A DNA stretch of 64,000 bases from an uncultured delta proteobacterium (lineage in GTDB: Bacteria > Desulfobacterota > Desulfobacteria > Desulfobacterales > JAHEIW01). The notes beneath the pieces are model-generated. The model did no database searches. It saw only the letters and a program-made list of their open reading frames with translations, and was not told where the DNA came from. The position numbers and the translations under genes are program-made. Shown piece after piece: positions 2,348 through 62,824 of this stretch. The DNA lies in NCBI GenBank assembly GCA_963706575.1, contig CAVPNL010000005.1:288001-352000 (forward strand), read 5' to 3'. Within the stretch, counting starts at the first letter, position 1. The number at the start of each line of letters is the position of its first letter.

Positions 2348-2499
2348 ACCGGTTTAATAGCATTCACCCTTTGCCCGAGGGCTATGCTGCCCCGCAAGCA
2401 TTTGCGGGATTTTACATCGAGCCAACTTGACAGCAATCGTTTGAAATCATAAAATTTATAGATTGGGTAAATTTTGAATCCAGAGAAGGAGTATGGTTA

Positions 2500-3573
2500 A
2501 TGCCAAAAAAGGGACGAGTTGTTCTAATATTGTTATTGGTTGTGGTTTGTCTCAGCGCGTATGCGTATGGGGACAAAAGCGACGACGGGCGCGTCAACCT
2601 ATCAACTGTCTATTTCAAAAAAGATTCTGCGGGGATTGCAACGGAATTCGAAGATGACCTCAAGAAGGTTCAGGCAGCACTCGCAGCGGACCCAGCCATC
2701 GGTTTGCAAATAGAAGGCTATGGCCGGAATTCCGGCACACCTGAAAAAAATCGCACGATTTCGCAGAAACGAGCCGAGGCGGTGCAGCAGTGGTTTGTAA
2801 CCCACGGTGTCGATGCGAGTCGGATGGTGATCAAAAGCTTAGGCGATTCTGAGCCGGCAAGCGGGAAGGATAAGCCCGACGATCCCGCACTGGCCGAGCG
2901 CGTCGAGATTTTGCAGGTTTCTTTAAAACTGCCTTTGGCCCATCTGCCGGCCCTGCGTTATGAATTTGAGCCGATTTTGGAGGGCCGCCAAGTCACTCAC
3001 GATTTTGTCGTTCAGAACAAAGGTTCGGCAACGCTTGAGATTCAAAAAGTCAAAACCGACTGAGGATGCACGGCTGTCTCTTATACGAGGCAGATCCCTC
3101 CCGGCGGCGAGGGAAAAGTTACCCTGAAGGTTAGCACCAATCACAAAGGCGGCAAAAAAATACTAAAGAGCGCGACTATTTATACCAACGACAAAAAGAG
3201 TCCGCGACTGAAGCTTTCAATCATCGGAGAGGTTGAAAAATTTGTTACGATTCATCCCAGCCAGGTTCGATTGCATGGCGTTGCCGGACAAGTGCTAAAA
3301 AGAAGGGTGACCATCATACCCACACCAAAGTATCCTTTCAAAATCATAAAGACTCGTGTCAGGGAGGGCAAGGACATTTCCTATCAACTGTCGGAGGAAA
3401 AAAGTGAAAACGGGCACAAATATGCGCTGACCGTTGAAAATAAAAGGATACAGAAGGGGAGTTATTTCGATATCATTACGCTGGAAACCGACAGCAAGAT
3501 TCAGCCTGAACTTCAAATCCGAGTTTATGGTCAACTCCGGCAGCCAACTGAAAAAGAAAAAAAAGGTGATTAG
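2500..3573 (+). CDS. Exported OmpA-like plus DUF1573/Ig-like protein; predicted selenoprotein (Sec188, UGA 3061-3063), 357 aa
   Basis: ORFs 2500..3063 and 3271..3573 share one frame separated only by TGA. Read-through gives KVKTD-U-GCTAVSYTRQIPPGGEGKVTLKV, matching the DUF1573 'xCGCT...IPPG' pattern. Signal peptide and OmpA C-terminal motif (N..ISQKRAEAV) present. Confidence 0.8.
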
Positions 3574-3889
3574 AAGCTATCTCAAAATTAGCAGTTGACC
3601 TCGGAAGACAGAGAAAAAAAGTTTCCACGGTGCTCTAAATTTAGAATTGCCTAAAATGCCTAAAATGATCTAAAATGCCTAAAGTTGAGGAATTCTTTCC
3701 TATTTATAATAAAAGATGTAGCGACCACCTGGCGTACACGCCGCGTAAGCGCTGGCACAGCGCGAGCGCAATCTTAATTTTAGGCATTTTAGATCATTTT
3801 TAATTTTAGCTCATTTATTGTTATAAGCACCTTTTATAGTTTTAGAACTTTACTATCGGGTGTTAAATATATTTTTGAGATAGCTTCTA
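3571..3889. mobile_element. MITE-like element, copy 1 (17-bp terminal inverted repeats, nested internal palindrome)
   Basis: TAGAAGCTATCTCAAAA (3571-3587) and TTTTGAGATAGCTTCTA (3873-3889) are perfect inverted repeats. Internal CTAAAATG tandem units are mirrored by CATTTTAG units. Homologous to 6422-6727. Confidence 0.7.
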
Positions 3890-3899
3890 TTAGATTCGT

Positions 3900-4519: not shown

Positions 4520-4858
4520 ATGTCGGATGAACCTGCTGAATTAAACAAAGAGGAAGAAATCACTAAGGACGATGATGACTGGGAAAACCGGGTTTTGTGC
4601 AGCGATGAAAGCTGTATCGGCGTGATCGGGCCAGATGGTCGCTGTAAAGAATGCGGCAAATCTTCCAAAGAATCGCCAGTCGGAGAAAAAGAAGCAGCCC
4701 AAAGCGACAACACGCCGCAGGAAGACCTTGATGAGCGGCCGGCGCCTCAGTTCAACGATGATTGGGAGAACCGCACTTTATGCGGTGATGAAAGCTGTAT
4801 CGGCGTGATCGGCCCCGATGGCCGCTGCAAAGAATGCGGCAAGCCATACGATGGATAA
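4520..4858 (+). CDS. Small acidic protein with two tandem Cys4 (putative metal-binding) repeats
   Basis: DDWENRxLCxDESCIGVIGPDGRCKECGK occurs twice; GGAGG RBS upstream. Confidence 0.75.
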   Translation: MSDEPAELNKEEEITKDDDDWENRVLCSDESCIGVIGPDGRCKECGKSSKESPVGEKEAAQSDNTPQEDLDERPAPQFNDDWENRTLCGDESCIGVIGPDGRCKECGKPYDG

Positions 4859-12245: not shown

Positions 12246-13366
12246 ATGATGCGTTTAACAAAATTGACGGCATTATCTTTTGTGCTCTGCCTAGTTCTGG
12301 CATTCGCTTTTGGATGTGCCGGCACCCAGAAGACAGCCGAGCCGGCCAAAGCCGACTGGCAGTTTCACGACATTGTGGATGTGGGGTTTGTGCAGCCGTA
12401 CGCCACGGTGCCCCAGCCCGAAGGGGTGATGATCATTGATGCGCGGCCCTATCAGCCCAAATACGCCAACGGTCACATTCCCACGGCCATCAGTATTCCG
12501 GACAGCCAGTTTGACAAAATGACCGACAAACTGCCCGAGGATAAGAATGCGCTTCTGATCTTTTATTGCGACGGCCCCACCTGAAAGCTGAGTCACAAAT
12601 CCGCCTGGAAGGCGGAAAAACTGGGTTACAGCAACGTTAAGGTGTTTGCCGCGGGTTTTCCGGCCTGGATGAAAGCCAAAGGCAATTATGCGGCGGTTTC
12701 CGTTGAATACGTGGCCAAACAGGTCGAGTCCAATGCAGGCCATCGTCATCGATTCACGGCCCAAAAAACCCAAGTATGACAAGGGCCATATTCCTTCGGC
12801 CATCAGCATTCCCGACAGCGAGTTTGACAAGCTGCAGGGCAAGTTGCCCCGGGACAGCGAAACACCGCTGATTTTTTACTGTGACGGTTTTACCTGAAAG
12901 TTGAGCCATCAATCCGCCCGGAGGGCGGTCCAGCTGGGCTATACGAATGTCAAGGTGTTTGCCGCGGGCTATCCGGCCTGGAAAAAGGCATACGGTGCAG
13001 CGCCGGCAGCCGTTGCGGTTAAGGCCGGCAGCGCAGAAGGCTCGATCGACATCGCCACCTTTGAAAAGATCATAAAAGAAAATCCGCAGAGCATTATGCT
13101 CATCGATGTGCGCGATCCCGATGAGTTTGCGGCCGGGTCGTTTAAAACCGCCGTTAATATTCCCACCGACGAACTGGAGAAAAAAATTCGCCACCCTGCC
13201 GGCAGATAAACCCATCGTGTTTGTCTGTAACACCGGTGCCAGAAGCGGTGAGGCGTTTTACATGGTCCAGGATATCCGGCCGGAGATGAAAAAGGTCTAT
13301 TACCTGGAAGCTGAAACGATCTATAACAAGGACGGATCGGTTAAGATTACCAAGCCGGCTTCCTAA
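12246..13366 (+). CDS. Three-domain rhodanese lipoprotein with two selenocysteines (UGA 12582-12584 and 12895-12897), about 372 aa; two +1 frameshifts
   Basis: Lipobox LAFAFGC. Domain 1 IFYCDGPT-U-KLSHKSA, domain 2 IFYCDGFT-U-KLSHQSA, domain 3 VFVCNTGARS. GHIP/IDARP rhodanese signatures; a SECIS hairpin follows each UGA. Confidence 0.88.
12600..12616 (+). promoter_or_regulatory. Bacterial SECIS hairpin (rhodanese Sec1)
   Basis: TCCGCCT-GGA-AGGCGGA, starting 15 nt after the UGA. Confidence 0.75.
12914..12928 (+). promoter_or_regulatory. Bacterial SECIS hairpin (rhodanese Sec2)
   Basis: CCGCCC-GGA-GGGCGG, with the loop at the same distance from the UGA as SECIS1 and a compensatory T-A to C-G closing pair. 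Confidence 0.75.
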
Positions 13367-13671: not shown

Positions 13672-15322
13672 ATGAAAGCAGTAGAAAAGAAGAATTCTTT
13701 TCTTAAATATATTATCCTGATAATGGCCGGGTTGATGCTGTGGTGTACCGTGTTATTTGCTGCACAGAGCGATGAGAGCCAGGCGCCCGGGCGCACCATG
13801 GCCCAGCAGGCCACCAAGGGCCAAAAGGTCTGGAATACCACCGATCATACCAAACACAAAGCCTTGCAGCAAGGATTTTAAATCCGGCCTGGAGGTCACC
13901 CAGGCCTGTCTTTCCTGTCATTCCGAAGCCGAAGCCCAGTTTCACAAAACCGATTCACTGGACCTGGCTGGCCGATCCGGCGGACAAAAACAAACAGTTC
14001 GGCAAAGCCGGAAATTCTCTCAATAATTTCTGTATTTCAACCAACAAAACCAAAGACAAGGGCTGTCTGTCCTGCCATCCGGGATGGGGCACCTCCAGGG
14101 ATAAGGGGATCAACTGTCTGGTCTGTCACAGTCGAAAAGGAAATGAACTGGGATGAAGCCATGACAGATATCAAGGCTTTTCTCGAAGCCGGCGATGAGG
14201 ATTCGCTGGAAATTGCCAGAGAGATCCAGGCCGAGCTGCGCGAAGCGGCCCAGAGCATGTGGTCGACCCGGCCGCAAAAATTGCGGGTCCTGCCATTTTT
14301 ACGGCGGCGGCGGTGACGGGGTGAAACACGGCGACCTGGATACCTCTCTGGCCAAACCCAATAAGGCCCTGGATGTCCACATGGGCGTCGACGGCCGCAA
14401 TTTTGACTTGTGTGCGCTGTCACACCACCAACCTGCATAATATTGCCGGTCGGGTTTATACACTGCCGGCGGCAGCGGAGCGCAAGAGCCTGGTGGAAGA
14501 TGATTTGGCCTCCAAGATCACCTGCGAATCCTGTCACACCCAGTACGCCCCACAAAGCCGGGTCCAAGGCCAACGATCATACGGACAAGGTGGCCTGCCA
14601 GAGCTGTCATATTCCGGAGTTTGCCCGGGTGAATCCCACCAAGATGTCCTGGGATTGGGCCCAGGCCGGCAGAAAAAAAGACGGCAAAAAATACAAGACC
14701 AAAGACGAGTTCGGCAAATTCGATTATATGACCATCAAGGGTCAGATGAAGTGGGCCAAAAATATCAAACCTGAATATCTCTGGTATAACGGCATCATTA
14801 AATCAGTGACGGCCAAGGATCAAATTGATCCCGGCCAGCCGGTAAAAGTTTCCTGGCCAGAGGGCAGCCGGTTGGATCCCAACGCCCGCATCTATCCGTT
14901 TAAAGTCCATCGCGGCAAACAGCCATACGACAAGGAGCACAATACACTGCTGGTACCGCTGCTGTCCGGCAAAGATGGTTACTGGACGACCCTGGATTGG
15001 AATCGGGCCCTGAGTAAAGGCCAGGAAGCTGTGGATCTGCCTTTTTCAGGCCGGTTTGATTTTGTGGAGACCACCTATGTATTTCCGATTACCCATATGG
15101 TGGCGCCCAAAGAAAACGCCCTGGCCTGCAGCGAGTGCCACAGTCGACAGGACAGCCGTCTGGCGAATCTGGGCGGTTTCTACATGCCCGGGCGGGATCG
15201 GGGTCAATTGGCTCGATATCTTGGGCTGGATCGCTGTGTTAGGCGCTTTAGCCGGGGTGGTTCTGCACGGCGCGGGTCGATTTTTTGCCAACGGCAAAAA
15301 CAACAAAAACAGCGCGAAATAA
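13672..15322 (+). CDS. otr: Octaheme tetrathionate-reductase (OTR)-family cytochrome c with C-terminal membrane anchor, about 547 aa; seven +1 frameshifts
   Basis: Reassembled frames give eight CxxCH motifs (CLSCH, CLSCH, CLVCH, CGSCH, CVRCH, CESCH, CQSCH, CSECH) and OTR signatures TTDH, IHWTW, NNFC, GGGGDGVKHGDLD, TKMSWDW, ITHMVAPKE; C-terminal TM WIAVLGALAGVVLH. Confidence 0.85.
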
Positions 15323-15362
15323 TTCATCGCCGTAAAAGGCTTGTCCTAATGGAACGCGGTAC

Positions 15363-15398
15363 AAAAAGGGGGTCCGCCCGAGGCGGATTCCCTTTTTT
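15363..15398 (+). terminator. Intrinsic terminator after otr
   Basis: AAAAAGGGGGTCCGCC-cga-GGCGGATTCCCTTTTTT. Confidence 0.75.
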
Positions 15399-15481
15399 CT
15401 TTTCTGCTTGCAGATTTAATCAAATTGGTTCAAAATTAATCCGCCCGTAAACATCTGACCCCGAAGCATGGAAGCTAAAAA

Positions 15482-61774: not shown

Positions 61775-62824
61775 ATGATCGATTTGAAAAAGCCGCGCTT
61801 GACCGAAACCGTGGCCGGTTCCGGGTGAGCTTCCAAGCTGCCGCCAGGGGACCTGGAGCAAGCATTGTGCGGGTTGGAGATTCCAACCAACGAGCGTGTG
61901 ATTGTCGGCATGGACAGTCTGGACGATGCCGGCGTATATAAAATTTCCGATGATCTGGCCATTATCCAGACCGTGGATTTTTTTACACCGATTGTAGACG
62001 ACCCGTACTGGTTCGGCCAAATCGCTGCCGCCAATGCGCTGAGCGATATCTACGCCATGGGCGGGACTCCCAAAACAGCCATGAATCTGGTGGGCTTTCC
62101 GCTGAAGCAAATGGATATCTCAATTTTGCGGCAGATCCTTCAGGGCGGTCTGGATAAAATGAAGGAGGCCGGTGTCATGCTGGTGGGGGGGCACAGCGTG
62201 GAAGACAGCGAGCTGAAATACGGCCTTTCAGTGACCGGATTCGTCCATCCGGACCGCATTCTGACAAAGAAGAATTTAAACGCCGGTGATCGTCTTGTGC
62301 TAACCAAGCCACTCGGCACCGGTGTTATCAATACGGCCATTAAAGGCGGCGTGGCTTCAGTCAAAGTAATTGATAAGATAACTCGATTGATGGCAACGCT
62401 TAACCGGAATGCGGCTGAGATAATGAAACAATATTCGGTGCACGCCTGCACGGATATTACCGGTTTCGGCTTGCTGGGGCATCTGGCAGAGATGGTGGAC
62501 GGTACCGGGCTGGGTGCCGTCCTGGATTCTAAAAGAATTCCCATCTTGTCTGAGGCTGTGGATTACGCGGCCATGGGGATGCTGCCGGCGGGTGCAAATA
62601 AAAACAAGATCTTTCGGGAGTCGATGGTTGAATTTTATTCTTCCGTGAACCCGCTGATACGGGATCTTTTATTTGATCCCCAGACATCCGGTGGTTTGCT
62701 GATCTGCATCGATAGGGATGACTCCGATGAACTGGTTGAGGAGCTTATTCAAAAAGGCAGTGACTCATCGGCCGTTATTGGAGAGGTGGTTTCAGCACCG
62801 CAAGAGAAAATTGTGGTCAATTAG
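61775..62824 (+). CDS. selD: Selenide, water dikinase; Sec-containing form (U18, UGA 61826-61828), 349 aa
   Basis: AAGGAG RBS, MIDLKKPRLTETVAGSG-U-ASKL in frame with ORF 61865..62824 (DDAGVY, QTVDFFTP, GGHS, TDITGFGLLGH, DPQTSGGLL). Confidence 0.95.
61844..61856 (+). promoter_or_regulatory. Bacterial SECIS hairpin of selD
   Basis: CCAGG-GGA-CCTGG, starting 15 nt after the UGA. Confidence 0.75.

What the first reader, a model, noticed from the sequence alone, without database searches (positions are those of the whole stretch)
2500..3573. OmpA-like peptidoglycan-binding domain fused to a DUF1573 domain with a UGC (Sec-Gly-Cys) motif
Seen: a single TGA (3061) interrupts an otherwise open 357-codon frame exactly where DUF1573 proteins have the first Cys of CGC. 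A hairpin follows (CTGTCTC-ttatac-GAGGCAG, 3074-3093, extended by GGAT/ATCC), but its loop lacks the GGA of the other three SECIS. Inference: a cell-wall-anchored periplasmic selenoprotein with a UxC redox or metal site. The OmpA fusion is unusual.
Basis: partly seen in the sequence, partly recalled or inferred. Interest (0 to 1): 0.72.

Follow-up and report, generated by a model that had tools for sequence, protein, structure and literature searches.

The report
Known selenoprotein with two-hairpin recoding signal
This gene's internal stop codon is very likely read as selenocysteine, as was already predicted for its protein family, but it is followed by two conserved RNA hairpins instead of the usual one, the first of which likely folds to bring the second within reach of the decoding factor, and its cell-wall-binding domain has lost a key residue.

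Summary
The open frame, single TGA (3061) and domains are confirmed. The Sec-Gly-Cys DUF1573 protein is not new: it is the predicted OS_HP2 selenoprotein family (NCBIfam NF041425, 144 bits, cut-off 100; described 2007), and this scan found the same gene before on other DNA (e1-4700615). Recoding is well supported: 69 of 81 homologous sites are TGA, 12 Cys, none TAA/TAG; the genome has selA-D.

Both hairpins are selected in Sec genes and absent from Cys genes, and an unrelated DsbA-like selenoprotein family has the same layout. The first hairpin likely shortens the spacer for the second. This is untested, and I did not find it in print. (2) The OmpA-like domain is a mostly genus-level fusion whose peptidoglycan-binding Asp is replaced (Arg76), and some relatives have deleted it, so 'cell-wall-anchored' is doubtful.

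The parts
2486..2491 (+). Shine-Dalgarno-like AAGGAG, 8 nt before the ATG
   Evidence: sequence; the start aligns with homologues' starts
2500..3573 (+). Whole CDS, 357 aa by read-through, ends at TAG 3571-3573
   Evidence: full-length orthologues with one TGA
2500..2571 (+). Predicted cleavable signal peptide, about residues 1-24 (basic N-end, hydrophobic helix, A-Y-A); no lipobox
   Evidence: sequence; helix 3-21 in the model; no signal-peptide predictor was run
2596..2922 (+). OmpA-like domain, residues 33-141, with a degenerate peptidoglycan site
   Evidence: (Z 14.3, rmsd 4.0, 114 aligned to 3TD3)
2725..2727 (+). Arg76, in the column of the DAP-binding Asp; the partner Arg91 (2770-2772) is kept
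   Evidence: alignment to Pal 2AIZ
2932..3237 (+). First Ig (ASH/PapD-like) domain = DUF1573 / OS_HP2, residues 145-246
   Evidence: VesB Ig Z 12.2, rmsd 1.9, 96 aligned
3061..3069 (+). U188-G189-C190; TGA at 3061-3063, at the turn between strands 179-186 and 190-195 of the model
3074..3093 (+). Hairpin H1 (+11 to +30 after UGA), 7 bp, loop UUAUAC without G; proposed spacer hairpin
3095..3114 (+). Hairpin H2 (+32 to +51), 8 bp with bulged C3108, loop GGC at 3103-3105; proposed SelB-binding hairpin
3238..3540 (+). Second Ig-like domain, residues 247-347
   Evidence: purifying selection downstream of the TGA, dN/dS 0.14

Best explanation
The gene very likely makes one exported 357-residue OS_HP2/DUF1573 selenoprotein, with UGA188 read as selenocysteine under a two-hairpin signal in which the G-less first hairpin likely folds just outside the ribosome and brings the GGC-loop second hairpin, the predicted SelB site, to the usual distance from the UGA. 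Shown: the frame, the Sec/Cys column, the Sec machinery, and both hairpins conserved in Sec genes only. Inferred: Sec insertion itself (about 0.97), H2 as the SelB site and H1 as spacer (about 0.6). The mature protein is predicted to be an OmpA-like domain plus two Ig domains, with U-G-C at a beta-hairpin tip. It likely works as a periplasmic selenol-thiol redox or soft-metal site with Dsb/MauE/rhodanese-type partners (about 0.5). Its OmpA-like domain likely binds peptidoglycan weakly or not at all (about 0.7).
For: Recoding: 69 TGA, 12 Cys, 0 TAA/TAG of 81 sites, while the same genes' terminal stops vary (TAA 32, TAG 21, TGA 14, 2 cut by contig ends). U-G-C is present in 69 of 69. selA, selB, two selD and tRNA-Sec are in the genome. 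In a phylum sample, 39 of 39 genomes with a TGA-bearing match have selA, and 0 of 5 selA-negative genomes with the family show an internal stop (Fisher p 0.027, kin not independent). dN/dS downstream of the TGA is 0.14. Hairpins against a synonymous-codon null: Sec genes H1 -9.2 vs -2.5 and H2 -10.1 vs -5.2 kcal/mol, each better than its null mean in 69 of 69 (p<=0.1 in 67 and 61); Cys genes -1.6 vs -1.2 and -3.05 vs -2.98 (p<=0.1 in 2 of 12 each). With +1 to +9 masked, both form in 63 of 69 Sec and 0 of 12 Cys genes. dS over codons 189-205 is 0.32 against 1.0-1.5 elsewhere. G lies in the first two loop positions in 1 of 69 H1 loops and 66 of 69 H2 loops. In this genome 19 of 21 GG-loop hairpins at candidate Sec sites lie at +18 to +28 with no strong hairpin in front; the two distal ones (+35, +40) both have one, against 17 of 34,817 open-frame TGAs genome-wide. 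The DsbA-like family repeats the layout in 28 Sec genes. Loop position minus H1 span has median 20 and 21, against 23 for single hairpins. Held-out genes from other orders: 17 of 18 fold into two hairpins with a G-led distal loop (my count). OmpA site. Redox neighbours.
Against: No experiment shows Sec insertion or SelB binding. H2's loop GG is a conserved Gly codon, so its conservation cannot be separated from protein constraint. In fixed register H2 shows little covariation (2 double-change cells, 73 of 500 shuffles as high); its support comes from codon choice and re-registered stems. In the held-out set H2 beats the null at p<=0.1 in only 9 of 18 genes and both hairpins in 7 of 18; one gene (L137) has no G-led distal loop; one Cys gene (L144) keeps a weak two-hairpin fold. 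The 32 reference Sec sites were hand-picked by recalled motifs, and 11 had no GG-loop hairpin under my definition. The DsbA-like H2 (34 nt) fits the published model without H1. The OmpA-like domain is still under purifying selection (dN/dS 0.23) and keeps Arg91 in 95 of 95. The commonest neighbours are housekeeping genes (priA at 41, a HAD phosphatase at 35 of 81 sites), which say nothing about function.
Confidence: 0.6

Rival explanations
1. H2 alone is a slightly long-range SECIS. H1 is a separate enhancer that pauses the ribosome or hinders release factor 2 at the UGA, rather than a spacer.
For: H1 starts at +11/+12, near where mRNA leaves the ribosome (recalled geometry). The DsbA-like H2 at 34 nt is inside the published 16-37 nt range without H1. 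H1 is conserved as structure, not sequence.
Against: Genes with a proximal GG hairpin need no extra hairpin (19 of 19 lack a strong one, though most have no room for it). H1's span matches the excess distance in two unrelated families (20 nt for +40, 14 nt for +35).
Confidence: 0.22
2. H1, extended by a lower stem over the UGA region, is itself a G-less SECIS. H2 is a by-product of the I-P-P-G-G-E-G codons.
For: H1 has the normal spacing (17 nt) and the stronger covariation. A lower stem is possible (probability above 0.5 in 12 of 69 free RNAs). Reviews state that some bacterial SECIS do not fit the G-loop model.
Against: H1's loop has no conserved base beyond codon needs (36 position-and-loop combinations in 69 genes). 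H2 beats the synonymous null in Sec but not Cys genes that encode the same peptide. H2 loops switch among GGC, GGU, GGA, AGGU and GGGC, the loop types of this genome's other SECIS.
Confidence: 0.12
3. The OmpA-like domain still tethers the selenoprotein to peptidoglycan.
For: The fold is intact (pLDDT about 90, Z 14-15). Arg91 is invariant and dN/dS is 0.23. Fusions in other lineages keep G-H/Y-T/S-D (L034, L037, L043, L082).
Against: Asp is replaced by Arg, His, Leu or a gap in 13 of 17 genus members and is Asp in 3 of 95 database homologues, against 6 of 9 other OmpA-like domains of this genome. The domain is deleted in frame in G003, G021 and G024.
Confidence: 0.27
4. The TGA is a true stop, a nonsense change or a sequencing error, and the product is the 187-residue 'OmpA family protein' that databases list.
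For: 93 of 95 database homologues end at this codon. The assembly has frameshifts nearby.
Against: Those ends are gene-caller truncations. The TGA is never swapped for TAA/TAG, it bisects a domain, the downstream frame is under purifying selection, and metagenome contigs show no other letter.
Confidence: 0.03

Closest known systems
OS_HP2 / DUF1573 UGC predicted selenoprotein (NCBIfam NF041425; Zhang and Gladyshev 2007, PMC1976440; catalogued in PMC9312934 and PMC13188914)
   Same: Above the family cut-off; U-G-C at the same column; same order of sulfate-reducer relatives.
   Different: It carries an N-terminal OmpA-like domain, which most members lack. 'OmpA' does not occur in the main text of those three papers. 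No SECIS for this family appears in the passages and figure legends I saw.
Consensus bacterial SECIS (bSECISearch model as summarised in PMC13188914 section 5)
   Same: In-frame stem-loop after UGA; H2 has a G-led small loop and stem like the genome's other SECIS.
   Different: Neither hairpin alone fits: H1 has the spacing but no G, H2 has the G but a 39-nt spacing. Two adjacent hairpins are selected together.
OmpA C-terminal / Pal / MotB peptidoglycan-binding domain (PF00691; A. baumannii OmpA Asp271 and Arg286 per PMC5974059)
   Same: Same fold (Z 14-15) and the conserved Arg.
   Different: The Asp column holds Arg; there is no beta-barrel or lipobox; relatives delete the domain.
Tandem ASH/PapD-like Ig proteins (HYDIN, VesB Ig domain, P. 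gingivalis 2QSV)
   Same: Two tandem Ig domains of this fold (Z 10-12.7).
   Different: Identity is 9-16%. A shared fold shows no function; the Sec/Cys motif was not examined in these structures.

Membership tests
OS_HP2 (seleno)protein NF041425 | Score above the curated cut-off | tested here: met
   144.1 bits vs 100, residues 150-246
OS_HP2 (seleno)protein NF041425 | UGC motif, TGA aligned to Cys of homologues | tested here: met
   69 UGC, 11 CGC, 1 CGV of 81 sites
Bacterial selenoprotein | selA, selB, selC, selD in the genome | tested here: met
Bacterial selenoprotein | Sec actually inserted | not testable with these tools
   needs 75Se labelling or mass spectrometry
Consensus bSECIS (H1 as candidate) | G in the first two loop positions | tested here: not met
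   loop UUAUAC; 1 of 69 homologues
Consensus bSECIS (H1 as candidate) | 16-37 nt spacing, 4-16 bp stem, 3-9 nt loop, <= -7.5 kcal/mol | tested here: met
   17 nt, 7 bp, 6 nt, -10.0
Consensus bSECIS (H2 as candidate) | G in the first two loop positions, stem and energy | tested here: met
   loop GGC, 8 bp, -10.4 to -11.2; 66 of 69 homologues
Consensus bSECIS (H2 as candidate) | 16-37 nt between UGA and apical loop | tested here: not met
   39 nt here; loop starts at +38 to +43 in all 69, at +40 in 58
Consensus bSECIS | SelB binding | not testable with these tools
   needs binding or reporter assay
OmpA-like peptidoglycan-binding domain | OmpA C-terminal fold | tested here: met
OmpA-like peptidoglycan-binding domain | DAP-binding Arg (AbOmpA Arg286) | tested here: met
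   Arg91, 95 of 95 homologues
OmpA-like peptidoglycan-binding domain | DAP-binding Asp (AbOmpA Asp271), 15 residues before the Arg | tested here: not met
   Arg76; column set by the Pal 2AIZ alignment and spacing, not by a printed alignment to AbOmpA
OmpA-like peptidoglycan-binding domain | Binds peptidoglycan | not testable with these tools
   needs pull-down
Pal-type lipoprotein | Lipobox Cys after the signal peptide (definition recalled) | tested here: not met
   Cys17 follows V-V-V inside the hydrophobic helix and is Gly in 12 of 95 homologues; Pal model 54 bits vs cut-off 125
Thioredoxin-fold UxxC selenoproteins | Thioredoxin fold with UxxC | tested here: not met
   all-beta Ig fold, UxC at a strand turn

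The most novel reading that the evidence does not exclude
Sulfate-reducer relatives use a second class of bacterial SECIS built from two adjacent hairpins. A sequence-free spacer hairpin starting 11-12 nt after the UGA takes up 14-20 nt, so that a GG-loop SelB hairpin can sit 34-42 nt away, wherever the protein's codons allow one. It occurs independently in at least two unrelated families (OS_HP2 and a DsbA-like UxxC protein) and would explain part of the 'atypical' SECIS that predictors miss.
Probability: 0.55. Interest if true: 0.72.

Novelty: new variant of a known kind. Interest (0 to 1): 0.52.

Why it matters
Reviews state that a subset of bacterial SECIS elements break the consensus model and that other classes must exist. 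This gene gives a concrete candidate class with sharp, cheap predictions. If right, the UGA-to-loop rule is about folded distance rather than nucleotide count. That would improve selenoprotein prediction and give more freedom when placing a SECIS inside a coding sequence for recombinant selenoproteins. Separately, some ninety database clusters annotated as 187-residue OmpA or hypothetical proteins are truncated halves of this selenoprotein. The protein family itself is known and adds little.

Tried and rejected
Rfam gathering search of the window: 0 matches. Single-sequence folding z-scores were not significant, so I relied on covariation and codon-aware nulls. A Sec-positive versus Sec-negative contrast within the order was uninformative because 57 of 61 genomes have selA, including those where only Cys forms were found; the phylum sample gave a small contrast. 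RNA runs X15 and X16 hold only short low-depth pieces, so expression is not shown. Fold searches gave OmpA and generic ASH/PapD Ig matches and no functional lead. The tree was the quick version: fusion and Cys forms are scattered, and it does not settle one versus several fusion origins. The genome-wide two-hairpin scan gave 17 hits; I printed only the 7 with a Cys/Ser/Thr pattern near the TGA, and of those only the target and the DsbA-like gene look like real genes. No language-model look-alike search was obtained, so that line is open. Literature: DUF1573, OS_HP2 and SECIS-layout searches showed no two-hairpin bacterial SECIS and no OmpA fusion. The 2005 bSECISearch paper was not seen, the 1998 minimal-SECIS paper is not held, and no supplements were opened; any of these could already show such structures.

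Full report
Observation. Window 2500-3573(+) is open for 357 codons apart from one TGA at 3061-3063. It lies between priA and a HAD phosphatase. Pfam places OmpA at 38-128 and DUF1573 at 153-245, across the TGA. NCBIfam names the second domain OS_HP2 family (seleno)protein, 144 bits against a cut-off of 100. The model (pLDDT 90, 83-row alignment) has a signal helix, an OmpA-like domain and two Ig domains, with U-G-C at the turn between strands 179-186 and 190-195. Fold matches are OmpA/Pal domains and ASH/PapD-like Ig domains.

What is known. OS_HP2 was listed as a new selenoprotein of Olavius symbionts in 2007 (PMC1976440, passages incl. Table 2). Two reviews list 'DUF1573 domain-containing protein, UGC' under that reference (PMC9312934 and PMC13188914, passages). 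An earlier report of this scan filed the same gene in another genome as known (e1-4700615). So the selenoprotein call is correct but not new.

Is the UGA recoded? From I took 81 distinct homologous sites, after dropping six duplicate loci, five sel-gene loci, one locus with no match and one hit to a second Ig domain. They give 69 TGA, 12 TGC/TGT and no TAA/TAG, while the genes' real stops vary. The genome (order Desulfobacterales by its named relatives) has selA, selB, two selD and tRNA-Sec. In 201 genomes across the phylum, 78 have the family; all 39 with a TGA-bearing match have selA, and the 5 selA-negative ones show no internal stop. TGA position was checked only for the loci I fetched. 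Downstream dN/dS is 0.14. Contigs of four metagenomes show no other letter at the TGA, and their cover peaks over about 3044-3117, the TGA plus both hairpins. Databases cut these genes at the TGA: 93 of 95 homologues of the first half end there.

The recoding signal. I folded 33 candidate Sec sites of this genome, picked by recalled motifs from a coding-potential scan, and scored 32 of them. 21 have a GG-loop hairpin, 19 with the loop at +18 to +28. The two exceptions are this gene (+40) and a DsbA-like UxxC gene (+35), and both have a strong G-less hairpin in front; 17 of 34,817 open-frame TGAs show that pattern. Here H2 spans 3095-3114 with loop GGC. The published model asks for a G in the first two loop positions and 16-37 nt of spacing (PMC13188914 section 5 passages; also PMC10778597 passage). 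H1 fails the first test and H2 the second.

Both hairpins are tied to Sec. Against synonymous-codon nulls, H1 and H2 each beat the null mean in 69 of 69 Sec genes, against 7 and 6 of 12 Cys genes. The 33 Sec genes from families other than the window's give p<=0.1 in 31 and 29. Tandem Sec/Cys paralogues in L010 and L058 show the loss directly (H1 -6.0 to 0 and -11.3 to -3.1; H2 -11.2 to -4.8 and -12.8 to -6.1). With the ribosome-covered bases masked, both hairpins form in 63 of 69 Sec and 0 of 12 Cys genes. The DsbA-like family repeats this in 28 Sec genes, not in 2 Cys genes, with double changes in both helices. Subtracting H1's span puts the GG loop at a median of 20 and 21, close to the single-hairpin median of 23. 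In 18 held-out Sec genes from the phylum sample, H1 often has a different sequence yet 17 fold as two hairpins with a G-led distal loop (my count). Against this: H2's fixed-register covariation is weak, its GG is also a Gly codon, H2 passes p<=0.1 in only 9 of 18 held-out genes, and two of the nine 'Cys' rows were spurious hits. The spacer role is an inference; a pausing role for H1 is the main rival. After forming this idea I saw an unchecked note on a distal SECIS drawn in by a long-range helix in another phylum (e1-914675), a lead only.

The OmpA fusion. It is present in 18 of the 20 genus members whose N-terminus could be read; G003 and G021 have deleted it in frame, as has G024 in the sister genus. 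It also occurs in G023, G045, G043 and, frameshifted, G025. A. baumannii OmpA binds diaminopimelate with Asp271 and Arg286 (PMC5974059, one passage). Aligned to Pal, the Arg is Arg91 and the Asp column is Arg76. Asp survives in 4 of 17 genus members and both outgroup fusions of the alignment, in 3 of 95 database homologues, and in 6 of 9 other OmpA-like domains of this genome. The domain is less conserved than the Ig pair (56% vs 73%) but still under purifying selection. The likely history is a cell-wall tether that is decaying or changing use in this lineage.

Function. Most copies sit by priA (41 of 81 sites) or the HAD gene (35), which is uninformative. A minority sit with periplasmic thiol and metal genes: cation efflux or MauE with an Fe-S protein and rhodanese in L015, L044 and L083 (MauE fused in frame in L083); the DsbA-like selenoprotein directly downstream in L012 and, by its N-terminal part, L014; a methyltransferase and thioredoxin in L075 (30 of 64 neighbour frames were scanned). 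With an exposed U-x-C this points to a periplasmic selenol-thiol redox or soft-metal site, at about even odds.

Novelty and score. The protein is known as a prediction, and the fusion is a minor variant. The two-hairpin SECIS was not found in the searches, or in passages of PMC12013277 and bioRxiv 10.64898/2026.03.03.709296. The primary SECIS papers and all supplements were unseen. It bears on a stated open question and is directly testable. Verdict: new variant of a known kind, interest 0.52.

Noticed in passing
G000:C4:194664-195614 (+), locus L092, TGA at 195171: Exported beta-propeller-like plus DsbA-like UxxC selenoprotein gene with the same two-hairpin layout (loops at +17 and +35, AGGU); only a weak NCBIfam match (NF041057, 81 bits vs 190), so it may lack a model of its own.
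   Followed up: yes
window 12246-13366 (+): Multi-rhodanese selenoprotein gene with two TGA codons (12582, 12895), each with a GGA-loop SECIS, broken by two frameshifts as assembled.
   Followed up: partly
window 13700-15450 (+): Multiheme cytochrome c gene (CxxCH motifs) split over three frames; with the rhodanese breaks this suggests assembly indels in this stretch.
   Followed up: partly
window 61796-62824 (+): selD with Sec at TGA 61826 and a GGA-loop SECIS; a second selD with TGA lies on C3.
   Followed up: yes
window 3574-3899: About 320-bp intergenic element with internal short repeats and inverted ends; 201 blastn pieces in the genome, 15 to 40 covering its flanks, likely a MITE-like repeat.
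   Followed up: partly
window 4520-4858 (+): 112-aa acidic protein with two C-x4-C-x9-C-x2-C repeats, no Pfam or NCBIfam match, conserved two genes downstream in 24 loci.
   Followed up: no
G000 genome-wide: At least 30 candidate selenoprotein genes, some with motifs I could not name (C21:+3924, C15:-166453, C16:-2961, C9:+9211); two of them have clear GGA-loop hairpins.
   Followed up: no
L083 (G053), L015, L044: A second OS_HP2 context with MauE, an Fe-S protein and rhodanese, with a cation efflux gene in L015 and L083; MauE is fused in frame to the Sec protein in L083.
   Followed up: partly
L012, L014, L073: OS_HP2 Sec proteins extended by one or two further Ig repeats.
   Followed up: no
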